Shown here piece by piece: positions 2,738 to 64,000 of a stretch of 64,000 bases of DNA. The DNA is from a virus: the UHGV virus genome UHGV-0129253. The stretch is one strand, 5' to 3'. A program made the translations under genes and the position numbers. Below the pieces are notes generated by a model. That model was not told where the DNA came from and did no database searches. It saw only the letters and a program-made list of their open reading frames with translations. Within the stretch, counting starts at the first letter, position 1, and the number at the start of each line of letters is the position of its first letter.

Positions 2738-3399
2738 TGCATAAATCAGTAGCCGGTGAGTTTCAGAAGGAAGTCGATAATACTACCGTTCTATTGGACG
2801 ATATTTTAAGCATTCTCGCGCTTCTTGAGGCTGGCGATTGGTCAGAACATTGCACTAAAACGGAGTTAGGCGGTCGGCTTGAAAGAGAGATTACACGACT
2901 TATTGGTGATGCGCAGGAAGCTACAGTCACTAGTTATGAGTTAATCGCTGAAGCCTGGCGTTTGATGGATGGACAAGATCCTAAAACTAGCGATTGGCAT
3001 AGCAAGGCTTCGAAGTATTTAAATTCCGATAGGGTAGAAAAAGTTGATGATGTGAAACCGAAGCCAGTAGACCACGGTTTCCGCGATAACTGCGAATGCT
3101 CTAGTTGCCAGACCACGGCCCGTATTTGTTCCGAATTGACAGATAAGTCCAGCCTAATCTACGAAGTTAATGTAGGCGGTAATACATGGGTCGAATGCAC
3201 AAGAGCTGCATACGTAAGAGCAAAAGACAAGGGTGAATTAACCAGAGTTGTTGCCCATCACCCAAATAATGAGCTTAAAGATCACCAGATTAGAGAACTG
3301 GTGAACGAGTTGCGGGATATTGCGGTTCAGTACCACGGAACGCAGCAATTGCGGGAGAAAATTGCCAGAGCAGTGAACAACTCAGTCCGTAAAAAATAA
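2734..3399 (+). CDS. Hypothetical protein (Cys cluster CECSSCQ)
   Basis: 221-aa ORF, ATGA overlap with upstream gene. Confidence 0.5.
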   Translation: MMHKSVAGEFQKEVDNTTVLLDDILSILALLEAGDWSEHCTKTELGGRLEREITRLIGDAQEATVTSYELIAEAWRLMDGQDPKTSDWHSKASKYLNSDRVEKVDDVKPKPVDHGFRDNCECSSCQTTARICSELTDKSSLIYEVNVGGNTWVECTRAAYVRAKDKGELTRVVAHHPNNELKDHQIRELVNELRDIAVQYHGTQQLREKIARAVNNSVRKK

Positions 3400-3786
3400 G
3401 CAATAGTACGATAAAGAGGCCCCATGCTCTTGATGGGGCCTGTAGCAACTAGCGTTATGGACGCTGGTTTACGTACTCAATGATCGCTTTGATAATCGCG
3501 AACATCGGCGGCACGATTTTGAACAGTAAGTTAACCATAACAGGCCTCACTTAGTTTTATCGCGCCTAGCTGCAAATACCTTTGGGCTTGCCTTTGCAGT
3601 TGCAATATCTGTAGTCGCCAGATACTTACGGCACGATTTCGAGTTAAGGTAAGGTTTTAGAGTCACCAAAAACCTGGACTTAAATCTTCTTTGAGAACAA
3701 CGATGTTTAGTAAATGGTCATTATTACCTGGTATGACCACTCAACGTTTCTTGATGAATCCAGTACATTCGGTTAATCTTAATTCA

Positions 3787-3870
3787 GTCGCCAGATACTT
3801 ATGGCTCAGGAACAGAGCCGCAAACTCTGTTTCCTTTTAAAAAGCCCAGCCTAGTCAACTGGGCTTTTTA
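3787..3870 (+). ncRNA. Candidate small RNA: repeated 16-mer AGTCGCCAGATACTTA, then hairpin AGGAACAGAG/CTCTGTTTCCT, then terminator hairpin plus T-run
   Basis: No ORF; two hairpins and a terminator in ~65 nt; the 16-mer also occurs at 3615. Confidence 0.25.
3843..3870 (+). terminator. Rho-independent terminator (AGCCCAG...CTGGGCT + TTTTT)
   Basis: 7-bp stem, 9-nt loop, T5 run. Confidence 0.55.
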
Positions 3871-8003: not shown

Positions 8004-8018
8004 AAACAATTTGTTTTC
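8004..8018. promoter_or_regulatory. Early-type palindrome AAAACAA-T-TTGTTTT
   Basis: Perfect 7-bp arms; upstream of a GATAAT -10-like box. Confidence 0.4.
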
Positions 8019-8052
8019 TACCTTTTATTGATTGAGATAATAAGCCACATAA

Positions 8053-8068
8053 GAAAACAAATTGTTTC
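8053..8068. promoter_or_regulatory. Early-type palindrome GAAAACAAATTGTTTC
   Basis: 13 nt upstream of ATG 8081. Confidence 0.4.
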
Positions 8069-43400: not shown

Positions 43401-45203
43401 GATGAAGCGGCGGCTCTTATTGCTAAGGAAAGCGAGGCTCGTGTTGAAGGCGATGCTGCAAACGCTAAACAACTGGAAGTGTTGCAGTCAACGGTAGAGG
43501 AAAGCTCCGCTGCCGTTGAAGAAATGAAAAAGACGGTTGCAGAGGTCGATCGTGCCAGTGCAGAACTGACTACGAACATTGAGGCGTTAGCCAAAACAAA
43601 TATTGACCTGGCTCTTCGTCAAGATGAAGACCAGCACAAGCAGATGGTCAATAACGCGAAGATCGCAACAACACAGAAAACCTTTGCTGATGATATGTCT
43701 GCAATGGCCACGAAGGTTGAGGAAATTCGCGTAGAAATTGGCGAAGACATTAAGGCCAGTATTCTGGAAGAGTCCACCGCTCGTGCCGATGGCGATGAAG
43801 CGTTGGCAAAGCGTGTCACTCAGCTGCAATCTAAGTTTGAAGGAGATATCAGCGCGGCGATTAGTACAGAGCAGGAGGCTCGTACATCTGCCGATGAAGC
43901 TCTGACGACACAGATCACTCAGCTTGAGTCGAAAGTAAGCAACGATATCGTCGCAGCTATTAAGGAAGAACAAGAAGCCCGAGCAACGGAAGATTCGGCT
44001 CTGGCAAGCCAGATCACCCAACTTCAGGCAAAGGTTGATGATGATATTTCTGCTGCAATACGTAGTGAGCAGGAGGCCCGAGCAAGCGGGGACTCTGCGT
44101 TAGCCAAACAAATAAACCAGCTTCAGTCAAAGGTTGACGGTGATATATCCGCTGCCATCACTCAGGAGCAGGAGGCCAGAGCAAGTGCTGACCAGGCGCT
44201 CTCACGAGAAATTAACAGCCTGCGAGCACAAACCGGAACTGATATTGCCGCAGCGGTTGCTGTAGAGACAAAAGCAAGGACTGATGCCGATAGTGCATTG
44301 TCTACCCAGATTACGTCTCTTACAGCAAAAGCTAATGATCTCGAGGCGTCTCTTGCCAGAGAAACAACGGCTCGTGCAGATGGTGATACCGCTTTAACAA
44401 AAGAGGTTTCAAGTTTAAAAGCACAGACAGCGAAAGATATTAGTGCGGCCGTTGCAGTTGAAACGCAGGCTCGAACTGATGCTGACTCGGCGTTGTCGTC
44501 TCAGATCACCAAGCTGACCTCTCAATACAAAGAGGATATTAAAGCGGCTGTAGCAACCGAAACGAAAACGCGTACAGAGCAAGATGCTGCATTGGCGACT
44601 CAAATCACAAACTTAGAGTCTCAAACGGCAGCCAACATTTCCGCGGCGGTAACAACTGAAACGACAGCGAGAACGCAGGCAGATAATGCTCTGAGTGGGC
44701 GAATCGATACTCTGAAAGCAGAGGTGGATGGAAATACCGCGACAATTCAACAGCAGGCAACAGCTATTGCTGATACCAACAAAAAAGTATCAACCGCGTG
44801 GACGTTGAAAATGGAGACTTCAACGAGCGGAGGGCAGAAGTATGTTGCCGGTATTGCGCTTGGTATTGACACCACTGGGCTATCTCAGTTTTTGGTTCAG
44901 GCGGACAGGTTTGGTTTGGTCAACTCTGTTAACGGGAAGATCACAACGCCATTTGTTATCGAAAACAGTATCGCCTATATGAATGGAGCGTATATCAAGG
45001 ATGGCACAATCACCAATGCAAAAGTAGGCGATCTGCAATCTACCAATTTTGTTAGCGGTAGATCTGGATGGCGGTTCGGCAAAAATGGAACGCTTGAGAT
45101 CAACGGTAATAGCGGCGGCAATGGGCGATTGGTTATAAATGGTCAGCGGATTGACGTTTATGACGATAACAACGTCCTACGAGTAAGAATTGGCCGTCTG
45201 TGA
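40476..45203 (+). CDS. Central tail fibre / host specificity protein (lambda J-like)
   Basis: NYPNSVLVGLKVNSEQFG, AFGCTSRGQAHRVGLWL match gpJ; ~1575 aa. Confidence 0.85.
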   Translation: MEQFKKKKLPLFIAGAGGKKSSKSSSRTPVEADDTVNSRAMAAILDLLGEGVIGGLVNGARSIFIDDLPIVNEDGSSNFSGITWDFRDGSQDQTPMSGFDFVETPKSVNIQLKKTHYVTVSIDNDEADRVRVIMKFPSLRSIDKKTGDTNGTTVEYKFQIANGDSTFVDVVAEGEKSVGIKLTAKKTGVYYRSYELKLPKPGRAYKVRVVRITDDNSSQYLYNDTWVDSIGEIVDTPMNYPNSVLVGLKVNSEQFGSTMPSRSYLVRGLKIRVPSNYNEASNTYDGVWDGTFKLLSSSNPAWILFDLLTNARYGLGQYVSESMIDLGQLYQIGRYCDEEVDDGFGGKEKRFAINTQITSRQDAYRLIQDIAGAFRGMVFWAGGMVNIMQDSPSDPVMMFTNSNVKDGLFTYKGSARKDRPSVALVTYNNKEDGYKQNIEYVEDQDAMRRYGERKTEVVAFGCTSRGQAHRVGLWLLYTARMESDVITFTAGLDASFLMPGETVLIQNKYRAGKRNSGRIVAFTKNSVTLDAPVSLAKGGCFIRILNQEGKIVERDVLETGENITKVTFSKDLSSAETPVLNGVWTITEPDLEPMRVRIVNIAQGETPGSFDITAVENNPSKYEAIDNGATLIPQNTTVLDPTYSKPSNLQITEGTYLSSPGNLSVKLTATWEGKSPEYWISWRRSDENNVSNWQSARVTEEQYEIVNVAENGRYDFQLYAVSFNGKKTEIISAVYQVLGTMTPPDSPTSLTAVGDYRNVILNWVNPDSVDLDHINVYASQTNNLDTAKLIAESASTTFTHAGLGDSETWYYWVRASNKRGMLSPPNSNLGTEATTRDVLSFLTGKITSSELGQALLEDINSKASQEAVDELNEHINQSVESLEGAVNDVKEDIAELDKQFSDNLADFEIKFNERSDALENAQTELKGEVSATIDKVNEAFEKIDATDAAIVEIENTVSEHDKALANTVEAIKAARDEAAALIAKESEARVEGDAANAKQLEVLQSTVEESSAAVEEMKKTVAEVDRASAELTTNIEALAKTNIDLALRQDEDQHKQMVNNAKIATTQKTFADDMSAMATKVEEIRVEIGEDIKASILEESTARADGDEALAKRVTQLQSKFEGDISAAISTEQEARTSADEALTTQITQLESKVSNDIVAAIKEEQEARATEDSALASQITQLQAKVDDDISAAIRSEQEARASGDSALAKQINQLQSKVDGDISAAITQEQEARASADQALSREINSLRAQTGTDIAAAVAVETKARTDADSALSTQITSLTAKANDLEASLARETTARADGDTALTKEVSSLKAQTAKDISAAVAVETQARTDADSALSSQITKLTSQYKEDIKAAVATETKTRTEQDAALATQITNLESQTAANISAAVTTETTARTQADNALSGRIDTLKAEVDGNTATIQQQATAIADTNKKVSTAWTLKMETSTSGGQKYVAGIALGIDTTGLSQFLVQADRFGLVNSVNGKITTPFVIENSIAYMNGAYIKDGTITNAKVGDLQSTNFVSGRSGWRFGKNGTLEINGNSGGNGRLVINGQRIDVYDDNNVLRVRIGRL
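43780..44770 (+). repeat. Tandem in-frame ~87-bp repeats (>=10 units) encoding coiled-coil motif (D/S)AL(A/S)xQITxLxSKVxxDISAAIxxEQEAR
   Basis: Read directly in J-like translation. Confidence 0.6.
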
Positions 45204-62413: not shown

Positions 62414-62700
62414 GCAATTTAACTTCTTGGGAATGGTGGTTGGCCACCTATTTCTTAGCGGCCGGAGTCGCATTCGCCTTTTACGTAGGTCAGTTAGTCG
62501 TAAAACTGTTGCTGATTAAATTTGCTAGTCATAAACGTATCGATGATGGTCTGTGGCGTCTTGGCACCCTGGTGGAAACTCGCTACGGGCAACTTAAGGA
62601 GAACGAAACCATTACTATCCAAGCGAAACGATTCACTGCCACCATCACAAGAACACCTAGTCGTAGAGTGGCCTTGATCATAAAAGTCACAACCGAATAA
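62410..62700 (+). CDS. Small membrane protein (96 aa)
   Basis: N-terminal TM WWLATYFLAAGVAFAFYVGQLVV. Confidence 0.5.
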   Translation: MSNLTSWEWWLATYFLAAGVAFAFYVGQLVVKLLLIKFASHKRIDDGLWRLGTLVETRYGQLKENETITIQAKRFTATITRTPSRRVALIIKVTTE

Positions 62701-62709
62701 AAACATGAT

Positions 62710-62731
62710 GATAAGTATTTACTTACTTATC
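62710..62731. promoter_or_regulatory. Late-type motif GATAAGTATTTACTTACTTATC, possibly driving the tRNA region
   Basis: Last member of the family; no plus-strand CDS follows before the tRNAs. Confidence 0.3.
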
Positions 62732-62937
62732 TTTTATGTATAAGATGACTTTGTTTTCGTTGAGACGCGACTGTTTGAACTTAAATACAAGTGCAAACGA
62801 AGAAGTCTATCTGGCAGTAGCCTAATAAGCCAAACACCAGCGAGGTCAGTTTCCAGCCTCGTTACCGAAATGGGACACACTGAGCGAGTGTGATTGCAGA
62901 ACGCAGGAGGGAACATTCATGTTCCCTCCGATGAAGT

Positions 62938-63014
62938 AACAGAATGGGCGGTTGGTATATTTTCAACTCCATATGACTCCCGGATTCTTAGCCACTGACC
63001 GCCCATCCTGTTAC
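62938..63014. repeat. Long hairpin element (arms ACAGAATGGGCGGT / ACCGCCCATCCTGT)
   Basis: ~14-bp arms around a ~45-nt interior containing a second palindrome GGGAACATtcATGTTCCC nearby. Confidence 0.35.
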
Positions 63015-63090
63015 GTCATTTTGTTCAATTATGTCGTTTATACTGGGTTAAAAAGCGGCGACGTAGCCCGGCTGGTATGGTTAGCCAGCA

Positions 63091-63212
63091 CACAACGTTG
63101 AGGCCATTACATTTTTATCAATTCTAAGGTTCTATTCACAGAGATACCGGCGAGCGTTGATATGTAACATGTTGGGCAAACATTCAATCGGAGTAGTGGC
63201 CTCAACGTTGTG
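63091..63212. repeat. Long hairpin element 1 (20-nt arms CACAACGTTGAGGCCATTAC / GTAGTGGCCTCAACGTTGTG)
   Basis: One G-T position, ~82-nt loop. Confidence 0.5.
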
Positions 63213-63478
63213 AAGACAGGATTGTTGTGTAGGTTTAACCACTGTTGCCATTGGTGCCTGTTTTCACAACAAATGATTCCATACATCACATTGTATAAAT
63301 TACAAAGTAGGTGCTGTCCTCAGAAACATCATCTACTTAAAGATTTTGCCTTCTACTATTGAGCGAAGTCGAAAGCGTCTGGCACTAACGAAAAGTGCAA
63401 GTAGCGGTGCGTTTCCTGGCAGAAACTAAACCGTCGCGATTGGCACTGTTGAGTAATAAATACTGGCAGTGCTGAATT

Positions 63479-63553
63479 GATGGTGTAGCTCAGCGGTAGA
63501 GCAGTTGGCTGTTAACCAACTGGTCGGTGGTTCGAATCCACCCACCATCGCCA
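63479..63553 (+). tRNA. tRNA-Asn (anticodon GUU)
   Basis: Hand-folded cloverleaf: acceptor GATGGTG/CACCATC, D-stem GCTC/GAGC, anticodon loop CTGTTAA, T-arm GGTGG-TTCGAAT-CCACC, encoded CCA; unlike the enterobacterial tRNA-Asn as I recall it. Confidence 0.8.
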
Positions 63554-63558
63554 ATTTA

Positions 63559-63645
63559 GGGGAGTTAGTCCGTAGGGGCAGCGGGGTAGACTGTAAATCT
63601 ACTGTCATTGCGACTCGGGTGGTTCGACTCCATCACTCCCCACCA
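63559..63645 (+). tRNA. tRNA-Tyr (anticodon GUA), type II with long variable arm; D-arm non-canonical
   Basis: Acceptor GGGGAGT/ACTCCCC, anticodon arm GTAGA-CTGTAAA-TCTAC, variable-arm hairpin GTC-ATTGC-GAC, T-arm GGTGG-TTCGACT-CCATC, encoded CCA. Confidence 0.6.
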
Positions 63646-63649
63646 AATT

Positions 63650-63725
63650 GCCGGTTTAGCTCAGTTGGTAGAGCGCCTGCCTTGTAAGCAGGATGTCAGC
63701 GGTTCGATCCCGTTAACCGGCACCA
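63650..63725 (+). tRNA. tRNA-Thr (anticodon UGU)
   Basis: Acceptor GCCGGTT/AACCGGC, D-stem GCTC/GAGC, anticodon arm CCTGC-CTTGTAA-GCAGG, T-loop TTCGATC, encoded CCA. Confidence 0.8.
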
Positions 63726-63726
63726 A

Positions 63727-63815
63727 CACAACAGGTAAGAGCATTGGGCGAATCGGCGATACTGACCCACAAGCCCGTAAATCGATAGAGTCAGACCAGT
63801 GCTCTTACCGTTGTG
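63727..63815. repeat. Long hairpin element 2 (arms CACAACAGGTAAGAGCATTGG / CCAGTGCTCTTACCGTTGTG)
   Basis: Starts immediately after tRNA-Thr CCA; paralogous to 63091 and 63868. Confidence 0.5.
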
Positions 63816-63867
63816 AGGAAGTGCAGCTCTTTGAAGCAACCAGAAGATAAGCATCTGGCTTCACAAC

Positions 63868-63944
63868 ACAACGATAAGATCATTACGGTTAATCGTCGTT
63901 CATGTGCACAATGACTGGTCGAAAGTAGTGATCTTACCGTTGTG
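63868..63944. repeat. Long hairpin element 3 (arms ACAACGATAAGATCATTAC / GTAGTGATCTTACCGTTGTG)
   Basis: Same terminal CACAAC...CGTTGTG signature with compensatory changes. Confidence 0.5.
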
Positions 63945-64000
63945 ATGAATGCACAGGCTGATGTGCCGCAACTACAGTAGTGCGCGCTTTGCGGGGCTTG

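What the first reader, a model, noticed from the sequence alone, without database searches (positions are those of the whole stretch)
62938..63944. Paralogous long hairpin elements with covarying stems flanking the tRNA cluster
Three elements of 77-122 nt (63091-63212, 63727-63815, 63868-63944) each have ~20-nt terminal inverted repeats beginning CACAAC and ending CGTTGTG. The internal arm sequence differs between copies but changes in a compensatory way (GTTGAGGCC/GGCCTCAAC versus GATAAGATC/GATCTTACC versus AGGTAAGAGC/GCTCTTACC). Covariation that preserves pairing argues for a selected RNA or DNA structure. A fourth, different hairpin lies at 62938-63014.
Basis: seen in the sequence. Interest (0 to 1): 0.6.

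Follow-up and report, generated by a model that had tools for sequence, protein, structure and literature searches.

The report
Phage long-stem RNA hairpin family
The hairpins next to this phage's tRNA genes are real members of a widespread, unnamed family of long-stem RNA elements, also present in phages lambda and P1, that most likely mark where long non-coding phage transcripts are cut into pieces.

Summary
Window 62930-63944 of an SSU5-like phage-plasmid carries four long hairpins on the tRNA strand, and each folds far better than its shuffles. They belong to a large family found in Enterobacterales phages and prophages, including P1 (four copies in the ban operon) and lambda (44787-44862, just after tR'). 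Rfam 15 has no matching family, and no held paper contains the sequence.

Covariation is strong. In 57 distinct stems, 19 of 20 pairs change on both sides, and 95.9% of cells pair against 71.4% in shuffles. One conserved interior occurs inside four different stems. G.U outnumbers A.C 67 to 15 on the transcribed strand. Orientation matches neighbouring tRNAs in 60 of 60 cases. This points to RNA.

The commonest stem is almost invariant, yet it encloses unrelated interiors: 43 distinct ones in 29 clusters.

The best explanation is inferred, not shown. The 20-22 bp helices would be RNase III-type processing signals that delimit small-RNA modules in untranslated phage transcripts. The rivals are a stable small-RNA scaffold and DNA-level recombination junctions.

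Separately, a 10-codon tmRNA-tag-like frame (ANEEVYLAVA) lies upstream. It recurs in 43 of 132 sources, and no tRNA-like domain was detected with it.

The parts
62930..63020 (+). Stem GATGAAGTAACAGAATGGGCGGTTGGT / ACTGACCGCCCATCCTGTTACGTCATT with a variable loop. Probably a diverged family member.
   Evidence: It is conserved in SSU5 and Klebsiella pJN2-26, with four one-sided G-C to G.U changes and an unrelated loop.
63091..63212 (+). Element E1. Stem CACAACGTTGAGGCCATTAC / GTAGTGGCCTCAACGTTGTG (20 bp including one U.G). The interior holds two small hairpins and a ..CAATC motif.
   Evidence: (-47.8 kcal/mol, z -5.9). Homologues in SSU5, pJN2-26 and P1 have changed stems.
63207..63270 (+). Spacer hairpin SH1. 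GTTGTGAAGACAGG pairs with CCTGTTTTCACAAC. It shares the GTTGTG of E1's 3' arm, so the two helices are alternatives.
   Evidence: (inverted repeat I7, 93% complementary).
63479..63725 (+). tRNA-Asn(GTT), tRNA-Tyr(GTA) and tRNA-Thr(TGT), co-oriented with the elements.
   Evidence: ARAGORN; Rfam tRNA, 75.5, 39.7 and 73.1 bits.
63727..63815 (+). Element E2, the commonest stem type. CACAAC-A-GGTAAGAGCATTG / CAGTGCTCTTACC-GTTGTG with a bulged A and a U.G wobble. It starts 1 nt after the tRNA-Thr CCA.
   Evidence: z -6.0. The same stem occurs in lambda, HK629, PJ16, Sasha, IME207 and many prophages with unrelated interiors.
63810..63867 (+). Spacer hairpin SH2. GTTGTGAGGAAG...CTTCACAAC encloses CCAGA-AGATAAGCA-TCTGG. 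It shares GTTGTG with E2 and one C with E3.
   Evidence: (97% identical to P7, 94-95% to P1-like phages).
63867..63944 (+). Element E3. Stem CACAACGATAAGATCATTAC / GTAGTGATCTTACCGTTGTG. The interior GGTTAATCGTCGT..GTGCAC..CTGGTCGAAAG is conserved.
   Evidence: z -4.3. The same interior sits inside four different stems in seven sequences.
63945..63966 (+). Conserved 3' flank ATGAAT plus the small hairpin GCACA-GGCTGA-TGTGC that follows many family members.
   Evidence: The variant GCGCA-GGCTGA-TGCGC keeps the pairing.
62793..62828 (+). Neighbour of the array, not part of the hairpins. A tmRNA-tag-like frame, GCA AAC GAA GAA GTC TAT CTG GCA GTA GCC TAA TAA, which reads ANEEVYLAVA**.
   Evidence: 12 ten-residue peptide variants; 43 of 132 sources; Rfam tmRNA families below threshold.

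Best explanation
The elements are structured RNA modules transcribed with the tRNAs from the + strand. Each is a helix of about 20-22 bp, closed by CACAAC/GUUGUG. It often has a bulged A at position 7, a U.U mismatch at position 10 and a U.G wobble at position 18. The helix encloses an interchangeable apical segment of 24-137 nt.

The most likely mechanism is that the long helix is a processing signal for the host double-strand RNase III. Cleavage would cut a long, largely untranslated phage transcript into discrete pieces: tRNAs, the tag-like RNA, spacer hairpins and the late mRNA leader. It would release or cap the apical segments, much as RNase III stems punctuate T7 mRNAs and rRNA precursors.

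Where an element abuts a tRNA, RNase P and tRNA 3'-end processing would define the other end.

Shown here: the structure, its covariation, the strand, the genomic contexts, and the family's breadth and modularity. Inferred: the identity of the nuclease and any role of the apical segments.
For: Structure and selection:
- Fold z-scores run from -4.3 to -6.0.
- The hairpins persist as domains in the fold of the whole 1.25-kb region.
- 19 of 20 stem pairs covary, with 0 of 500 shuffles reaching the observed values.
- 11 of 26 pairs are compensatory in an unfitted alignment of copies that share an interior but not a stem.

RNA of the + strand:
- There are 67 G.U against 15 A.C in 53 distinct stems.
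- H4 varies only by G-C to G.U changes.
- Orientation agrees with tRNAs or tag modules in 60 of 60 cases.
- No ORF of note and no terminator-like site lies in 62700-64000.

Processing context:
- 22 of 145 elements start 1-2 nt after a tRNA 3' end, and two overlap a tRNA 5' end by 3 nt.
- Elements flank the tag module on both sides in prophages.
- The lambda copy sits in the late leader directly after tR'.
- A 1988 paper whose title reports RNase III processing sites in lambda late RNA exists (citation seen).
- The RNase III valley accommodates about 22 bp of dsRNA (PMC6212723), which matches the stems.
- Non-canonical features recur at fixed positions, as expected for a helix recognised by a protein.
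Against: No cleavage or transcript data were available. The 1988 lambda paper is not held, so I could not confirm that its RNase III sites coincide with this hairpin.

RNase III does not need a nearly invariant stem sequence. Yet 66 elements share at least 18 of 20 arm bases while carrying 43 unrelated interiors.

The E3-type interior is itself conserved, which implies a function beyond a cleavage signal.

In the lambda leader the hairpin appears in the centroid structure but not in the minimum-energy fold.

The P1 Ea-type copies carry A.C mismatches on the sense strand.
Confidence: 0.5

Rival explanations
1. The elements are stand-alone stable small RNAs. The conserved long stem is a nuclease-resistant scaffold, or a handle for a host protein. 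The variable apical segment is the functional part: a regulator, a decoy for tRNA-directed enzymes or defence nucleases, or a dimerising loop. On this view the ends are made by the tRNA-processing machinery rather than RNase III, as for the stable RNAs rnaC and rnaD of the T4 tRNA cluster.
For: Some elements occupy tRNA-like slots. Near-identical arms carry 43 different interiors. The E3-type interior is conserved across an SSU5-like phage-plasmid, a Phapecoctavirus, a Nonanavirus and prophages, and three of its four loop variants are 6-nt palindromes: GUGCAC, GCGCGC and GGGCCC. Some interiors contain T-arm-like hairpins, such as GGGTTCGAATCCC in P1. The same prophage neighbourhoods are known to encode processed small RNAs, the Pas sRNAs and STnc100 (10.64898/2026.05.13.724894).
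Against: Many interiors have no homologue, and only 3 of 43 contain a T-arm-like hairpin. There was no Rfam hit to Y RNA, C4 or any other small-RNA family. T4 rnaC and rnaD do not have this architecture. No expression data were available.
Confidence: 0.25
2. The elements act at the DNA level. The conserved inverted arms would be junctions for recombination that shuffle small cassettes between unrelated phages. This could work by homologous exchange at the arms, or by a site-specific or single-strand mechanism like integron attC sites or MITEs. The hairpin potential would then be a by-product or a folded-ssDNA substrate.
For: The arms are nearly invariant and the centres unrelated. The ends carry AAC...GTT with a bulged base next to the terminal box and a variable centre of 24-137 nt, which resembles attC anatomy (my own knowledge of attC). 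The window differs from 97.6%-identical CMS-2020a by a clean 140-nt indel (E2 plus spacer) bounded by the direct repeat CAACACAAC. The flank after E3 switches to P1-like sequence at the arm. One prophage copy joins a 5' arm of one type to a 3' arm of another.
Against: The G.U over A.C excess on the transcribed strand, and the one-sided G-C to G.U changes, fit RNA rather than duplex DNA or bottom-strand folding. Orientation relative to transcription is strict, 60 of 60. The terminal boxes do not fit RYYYAAC/GTTRRRY exactly. No target-site duplications are present. No recombinase is consistently nearby, and the Cyrano integrase hits only a generic integrase domain. Recombination at conserved arms would happen anyway if the arms are conserved for an RNA reason.
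Confidence: 0.12
3. The 3' arm is a boxA-like site for NusB/NusE. The arm reads UGCUCUUU or UGCUCUUA, is followed about 14 nt later by a small hairpin, and so is arranged like a lambda nut site. It would make RNA polymerase resistant to Rho across these long untranslated arrays.
For: The string GCTCTT(T/A) is present in most commonest-type 3' arms. The consensus boxA sequences are from my own knowledge. The covarying hairpin GCGCA-GGCUGA-UGCGC follows. The arrays are 0.7-1.5 kb of untranslated RNA.
Against: The motif is buried in a stable 20-bp helix whose partner strand is transcribed first. E1, E3, Cyrano-type and PJ16-type stems lack the motif yet keep the helix. The lambda copy lies downstream of Q-modified transcription, which is already terminator-resistant.
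Confidence: 0.05

Closest known systems
RNase III processing hairpins of phage and rRNA transcripts (T7 R-sites, lambda N-leader and sib, rRNA processing stalks, and the RNase III sites reported for lambda Q-dependent late RNA by Daniels et al. 1988)
   Same: They are helices of about 20-22 bp inside polycistronic transcripts. They occur as paralogous copies between functional units and have internal bulges or mismatches at fixed positions. The lambda member lies in the late leader, where RNase III sites were reported.
   Different: Cleavage was not shown for any member. The stem sequence is far more conserved than RNase III needs. The apical part is hypervariable or independently conserved. 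The family spans unrelated phage groups. I could not verify that the published lambda sites are this hairpin.
T4 stable RNAs rnaC and rnaD (species 1 and 2) in the T4 tRNA cluster
   Same: They are non-tRNA small RNAs co-transcribed with phage tRNAs and abutting them, with no established function (annotated in NC_000866 only as small, stable RNAs). rnaC contains a T-arm, as some interiors here do.
   Different: The T4 RNAs are not long terminal-stem hairpins and share no sequence with this family.
Integron attC sites
   Same: They are imperfect inverted repeats of about 60-140 nt with AAC...GTT near the ends, extrahelical bases, a variable centre and structure conserved more than sequence. They lie at boundaries of co-oriented cassettes.
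   Different: The terminal boxes do not fit the attC consensus. No integron integrase is present. The wobble asymmetry favours the transcribed strand. The cassettes here would be tRNAs or non-coding RNA rather than ORFs.
Bacterial Y RNAs (YrlA)
   Same: They have a long stem formed by the 5' and 3' ends, and some copies have tRNA-like pieces in the apical part.
   Different: The Ro-binding motif GNCGAAN0-1G (PMC4201824) is absent. The only Rfam YrlA hit is a sub-threshold match over two adjacent real tRNAs in P1. No Ro gene context is known.

Membership tests
The CACAAC...GTTGTG long-stem hairpin family (defined here; lambda 44787-44862 and P1 copies as references) | A terminal helix of about 20 bp closed by CACAAC/GTTGTG or a compensated variant | tested here: met
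   E1, E2 and E3 meet it. H4 meets it only as a compensated variant, GTAACAG/CTGTTAC.
The CACAAC...GTTGTG long-stem hairpin family (defined here; lambda 44787-44862 and P1 copies as references) | Position-specific non-canonical features: a bulged A at position 7 and a U.G wobble at position 18 | tested here: met
   E2 has both. E1 and E3 have the U.G wobble but a paired position 7. Across the family the bulge occurs in 31 of 53 stems and the wobble in 22 of 53.
The CACAAC...GTTGTG long-stem hairpin family (defined here; lambda 44787-44862 and P1 copies as references) | Same strand as neighbouring tRNAs or tag modules, with a conserved 3' flank of the type RTGAA | tested here: met
   E2 has AGGAAG, E3 has ATGAATGC plus the small hairpin, and E1 has AAGA. 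The flank rule agrees with tRNA or tag orientation in 60 of 60 cases.
RNase III substrates | An intramolecular dsRNA helix of about 20-22 bp | tested here: met
   There are 19-25 paired positions. The size requirement comes from PMC6212723.
RNase III substrates | RNase III-dependent cleavage with 2-nt 3' overhangs, in vivo or in vitro | not testable with these tools
   No transcript-end data were available. Daniels et al. 1988 is not held, and the lambda records annotate only orf-64 here.
Integron attC sites | R''/R' boxes RYYYAAC / GTTRRRY | tested here: not met
   ACACAAC and GTTGTGA each break the consensus, and only AAC/GTT fit. The consensus is from my own knowledge.
Integron attC sites | Association with an integron integrase, and recombination of the folded bottom strand | tested here: not met
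   The only nearby recombinase in a relative (Cyrano) hits a generic integrase domain. The wobble asymmetry favours the top, transcribed strand. Recombination itself was not testable.
Y RNA / YrlA (RF02553) | The Ro-binding motif GNCGAAN0-1G in the stem, and a match to the covariance model | tested here: not met
   The motif is absent from the stems. No Rfam hit falls on the elements.
tmRNA (for the neighbouring tag-like module) | A tag reading frame with a GCA resume codon, a 10-residue AN..(A/V)A tag and stop codons | tested here: met
   Window 62793-62828 meets it. There are 12 ten-residue variants in 43 sources.
tmRNA (for the neighbouring tag-like module) | A tRNA-like domain (acceptor stem with G3.U70, T-arm, CCA) and a covariance-model score above threshold | tested here: not met
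   ARAGORN finds no tmRNA in the window or in any of 132 sources. Rfam tmRNA families score 14-28 bits against thresholds of 47-84.

The most novel reading that the evidence does not exclude
The hairpins would be the visible part of a modular phage system of non-coding RNA arrays. A near-invariant 20-bp stem would serve as a universal cassette that carries and exchanges small-RNA cargos between unrelated Enterobacterales phages such as lambda, P1, SSU5-like phage-plasmids, Nonanavirus and Phapecoctavirus. These cargos include tRNA-like fragments and loops with self-complementary hexamers. Next to the cassettes sits a tmRNA-tag-encoding RNA that lacks its own tRNA-like domain. The arrays would be a previously unrecognised toolkit for host takeover or counter-defence. 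The stem would act both as the RNA processing signal and as the DNA recombination junction.
Probability: 0.2. Interest if true: 0.85.

Novelty: new variant of a known kind. Interest (0 to 1): 0.62.

Why it matters
If this reading is right, two of the best-studied phages, lambda and P1, carry an unannotated structured-RNA family. Current annotation covers it with doubtful ORFs: orf-64 in lambda, and plp and upl in P1.

Recognising the family would do three things:
- correct those annotations;
- explain how long untranslated phage transcripts that carry tRNAs and small RNAs are cut into units;
- give a search handle, the conserved stem, for finding new phage small RNAs held in its apical position.

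The near-invariant arms with unrelated centres, and the clean indels at the arms, also identify a concrete junction at which unrelated phages exchange short non-coding modules. The neighbouring tmRNA-tag-like RNA without a tRNA-like domain raises a directly testable question: do these phages interfere with, or exploit, ribosome rescue?

Tried and rejected
- **Rfam.** Searches at permissive E-values over the window end, P1, lambda, SSU5, PJ16 and phiWec188 returned no family for the hairpins. The only neighbouring hit is STnc100, below threshold, just after the fourth P1 element.
- **Y RNA / YrlA.** Rejected because the Ro-binding motif and a model match are both absent.
- **Literature.** No held paper contains the stem strings or the tag peptides. 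Searches on P1 plp/upl and on boxA with tRNA and prophage found nothing relevant. Daniels et al. 1988 is not held. The RNase III mapping papers do not mention a matching site.
- **E. coli K-12.** I fetched the late regions of the DLP12 and Qin prophages to exploit published RNase III maps. Neither carries a copy.
- **Genome-wide pattern scan.** Most of the 120 loci were chance matches or lambda contamination. After filtering for a paired 3' arm, true copies came from Enterobacterales, apart from one short contig assigned to Martelella and one to a Cellvibrionaceae MAG, which I did not resolve.
- **Tolerant pair counting.** My first hairpin measure did not discriminate well, because 19-22 'pairs' occur by chance elsewhere in the window. 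I replaced it with perfect-repeat counts and fold z-scores.
- **Strand by pairing score alone.** This gave only 52 against 22 in favour of the tRNA strand, because the P1 Ea-type copies have sense-strand A.C mismatches. The direct G.U against A.C count is the better measure.
- **Two-piece tmRNA idea.** I considered that the tag module's 5' UUUUCGU might pair with ACGAAGU-A-CCC, which follows a T-arm inside a P1 element. I dropped it because no equivalent partner exists in the window or in the prophage loci I inspected by eye.
- **Similarity to the 23S rRNA processing stem (GUUGUGAGG).** I judged this to be chance at that length.
- **A sigma-70 promoter at 62715-62745.** I saw this by eye, but the scan did not support it.
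Full report
**What the window is.** The last 1.3 kb of the window (62700-64000) has no ORF of note and no terminator-like site. It follows a DNA ligase gene and four small ORFs. The best DNA matches are the SSU5-like phage-plasmids Escherichia phage CMS-2020a (97.6%) and Cyrano (98.2%). Parts of the stretch also match P1-like phages, Nonanavirus and Sashavirus phages, a Phapecoctavirus and lambdoid phages. ARAGORN and Rfam find tRNA-Asn, tRNA-Tyr and tRNA-Thr on the + strand at 63479-63725.

**The observation.**
- The fourth hairpin is at 62930-63020.
- As + strand RNA they fold at -47.8, -38.1, -32.9 and -36.5 kcal/mol. The z-scores are -5.9, -6.0, -4.3 and -5.3, and no shuffle out of 200 does as well.
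- For the three CACAAC elements, E1 to E3, the - strand folds less well; H4 folds slightly better on the - strand (-39.0 against -36.5 kcal/mol).
- All four remain separate domains in both the minimum-energy and centroid structures of the whole 62750-64000 transcript.
- E1 is one of only two perfect inverted repeats of at least 12 bp, with a 20-130 nt loop, in the 64-kb window. Shuffled windows give a mean of 0.35.
- Two shorter spacer hairpins reuse the GTTGTG of the preceding element and pair it with a downstream CACAAC: 63207-63270 and 63810-63867. Neighbouring helices are therefore partly exclusive.

**A large family.**
- P1 carries four copies in the ban operon around trnA and trnT (locus L002 about 2667-2747, 3106-3192, 3332-3425 and 3608-3686). 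The last three lie under the annotated minus-strand ORFs plp and upl; the first lies upstream of trnA, outside them.
- Lambda carries one at 44787-44862, immediately after the tR' terminator and partly under the hypothetical orf-64.
- Copies also occur in HK629 (late region), PJ16 and Sasha (between capsid and neck genes), phiWec188 (inside its tRNA cluster), IME207, SSU5, Klebsiella pJN2-26 and Cyrano.
- A scan of 185,579 species genomes returned true copies in Serratia, Yersinia, Rahnella, Pantoea, Klebsiella, Superficieibacter, Pectobacterium and Kluyvera. It also returned low-coverage contigs identical to lambda, plus two unresolved contigs assigned to Martelella and a Cellvibrionaceae MAG. 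The rest were chance matches without a paired arm.
- Rfam 15 has no family for the elements.
- No held paper contains the stem sequence.

**Covariation.**
- I oriented 146 elements and reduced them to 53 distinct stems.
- With PJ16 and three H4-type stems added, 57 stems were aligned arm-to-arm without gaps.
- Of the 20 pairs, 19 show changes on both sides.
- Of the cells, 95.9% pair, against 71.4% in shuffles and 33-55% when the partner is slid by 1-3 columns.
- The covariation score is 0.671 against 0.214, and 0 of 500 shuffles reach it.
- That alignment was built by pairing arms, so it leans towards the structure.
- An independent test uses copies recognised by their shared interior (GATTGATCGTCGT...CTGCTCGAAAG). 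Seven such sequences were aligned by MAFFT alone. They have four different stem types, and 11 of 26 predicted pairs carry compensatory double changes.
- Even the terminal box covaries: CACAAC/GTTGTG, CACAGC/GCTGTG, CCCACG/CGTGGG and ACTATC/GATAGT.

**RNA or DNA.**
- In the 53 distinct stems there are 922 Watson-Crick pairs, 67 G.U, 15 A.C, 25 other mismatches and 31 bulges.
- G.U pairs, which hold only on the transcribed strand, therefore outnumber A.C (which would be G.U on the other strand) by more than 4 to 1.
- The non-canonical features sit at fixed positions: a bulged A at 7, U.U at 10 and U.G at 18.
- The H4-type hairpin differs among three phage-plasmids only by G-C to G.U changes.
- Orientation inferred from the 3' flank agrees with that of nearby tRNAs or tag modules in 60 of 60 cases.
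- The exception is the P1 Ea-type, which has sense-strand A.C mismatches.
- Taken together, the data favour an RNA of the tRNA strand.

**Context.**
- Of 145 oriented elements, 22 begin 1-2 nt after the 3' end of a tRNA (Thr 18, Ser 4). E2 is one of these.
- Sixty-one have a same-strand tRNA within 300 nt.
- In two prophages the element's last 3 nt overlap the 5' end of tRNA-Arg.
- In prophages an element also directly precedes and follows the tag-like module.
- The elements therefore sit between discrete RNA units of long untranslated transcripts.

**The unusual feature.**
- Sixty-six elements share at least 18 of 20 bases of the 5' arm CACAACAGGTAAGAGCATTG.
- They enclose 43 distinct interiors of 29-137 nt.
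- These fall into 29 clusters at 70% identity, with a median pairwise identity of 0.48.
- Conversely, one interior (the E3-type) occurs in four stem types.
- The window differs from CMS-2020a by a clean 140-nt indel comprising E2 plus its spacer hairpin, bounded by the direct repeat CAACACAAC.
- The inserted spacer, and the flank after E3, are P1-like.
- Whatever their RNA role, the arms therefore behave as junctions of mosaic exchange between unrelated phages.

**Mechanism.** The best-supported explanation is that the 20-22 bp helices are double-strand RNase processing signals that punctuate these transcripts. Four points support it:
- the stem length matches the roughly 22 bp that RNase III accommodates (PMC6212723);
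- the anatomy and the paralogous intergenic placement resemble T7 and rRNA RNase III sites (my own knowledge);
- the lambda member lies in the Q-dependent late leader, for which a 1988 paper reports RNase III processing sites (title seen);
- the lambda hairpin appears in the centroid fold of the leader.

I could not read the 1988 paper. The lambda records do not annotate such sites. The K-12 cryptic prophages with published RNase III maps lack a copy. The nuclease is therefore inferred, and I put the confidence at 0.5. The near-invariant stem sequence and the conserved E3-type interior are not explained by a bare cleavage signal.

That keeps two rivals alive. One is a stable small-RNA scaffold whose apical part is the functional cargo (0.25). 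The other is a DNA-level cassette junction (0.12). A boxA-like reading of the 3' arm (UGCUCUUU) is unlikely (0.05). The motif is buried in the helix, and it is absent from E1, E3 and other covarying stems.

**Comparison with known families.**
- Y RNA: membership fails, with no Ro-binding motif and no model hit.
- attC: membership fails. The box consensus is not met, no integron integrase is nearby and the strand asymmetry is wrong.
- T4 rnaC and rnaD: they share the context but not the architecture.
- Pas sRNAs and STnc100: they lie in the same prophage neighbourhoods, but the preprint does not describe these hairpins.
- Overall, I file the elements as a new variant of a known kind, namely phage RNA processing hairpins. 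They form a family not previously named, as far as these tools can tell.

**Noticed next door.**
- Window 62793-62828 reads ANEEVYLAVA followed by two stop codons, starting at GCA. E. coli ssrA encodes ANDENYALAA (from memory).
- Twelve ten-residue variants of the same form occur in 43 of 132 sources, including P1 (ANDDLMMVAA) and PJ16 (ANEERFLMAA).
- In P1 and PJ16 there is no canonical start codon upstream in frame; the window has an in-frame TTG that the others lack (my reading of the sequences).
- A covarying hairpin follows the stop codon.
- Rfam tmRNA models hit the region below threshold.
- ARAGORN finds no tmRNA and no tRNA-like domain.
- No held paper contains these peptides.
- This deserves its own study.

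Noticed in passing
window 62750-62930 (tag frame 62793-62828; following hairpin 62841-62861): A tmRNA-tag-like reading frame, GCA AAC GAA GAA GTC TAT CTG GCA GVA-type, reads ANEEVYLAVA followed by two stops. It has a conserved upstream block (GTTTTCG..GCGACTGTTTGAAC) and a covarying hairpin after the stop. Twelve ten-residue variants occur in 43 of 132 sources, including P1 (ANDDLMMVAA) and PJ16 (ANEERFLMAA). Rfam tmRNA models hit below threshold. ARAGORN finds no tmRNA or tRNA-like domain. No held paper contains the peptides.
   Followed up: partly
L002 (P1 NC_005856) 3075-3644; L131 (lambda) 322-516: The annotated ORFs plp and upl of P1 (minus strand) and orf-64 of lambda overlap these conserved RNA hairpins and spacer hairpins. 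They may be annotation artefacts rather than genes.
   Followed up: no
window 63896-63902 (loop of E3); L004 1833-1912; L005 2005-2090; L020 7031-7109; L129 9654-9732: The apical loop of the E3-type interior carries a 6-nt self-complementary hexamer in three of four variants: GUGCAC, GCGCGC and GGGCCC, with GUGCCC as the exception. The closing 3-bp stem covaries. This suggests loop-loop dimerisation or a dimeric protein site.
   Followed up: partly
window 63727-63866 versus L006 (CMS-2020a) about 3520-3530: E2 plus its spacer hairpin is a clean 140-nt insertion or deletion between 97.6%-identical phage-plasmids, bounded by the 9-nt direct repeat CAACACAAC. The inserted spacer, and the sequence after E3, are P1-like.
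   Followed up: yes
L002 (P1) 3106-3192; also L029, L047, L014, L089: Some interiors contain near-perfect tRNA T-arms. In P1 the T-arm AGGGTTCGAATCCCT is followed by ACGAAGT-A-CCC, which looks like an acceptor 3' strand, a discriminator base and CC. ARAGORN calls no tRNA there. Only 3 of 43 commonest-type interiors have such an arm.
   Followed up: partly
window 8004-8067: A 16-bp perfect inverted repeat, AAAACAATTTGTTTTC...GAAAACAAATTGTTTT, with a 31-nt AT-rich spacer lies in an intergenic-looking stretch. It is unrelated to the hairpin family and could be an operator, an origin or a terminator.
   Followed up: no
L002 (P1) 3683-3802: The stretch right after the fourth P1 element matches the Rfam small RNA STnc100 (33.4 bits, threshold 47), starting at the conserved GGTGAAT flank. 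STnc100 and the PasD sRNAs of pathogenic E. coli may therefore begin at the 3' side of a family member.
   Followed up: partly
window 62906-62929: A perfect 11-bp hairpin, GGAGGGAACAT/ATGTTCCCTCC, with a 2-nt gap between the arms lies just upstream of H4. The SSU5 and pJN2-26 homologues have different stems at the same place.
   Followed up: no
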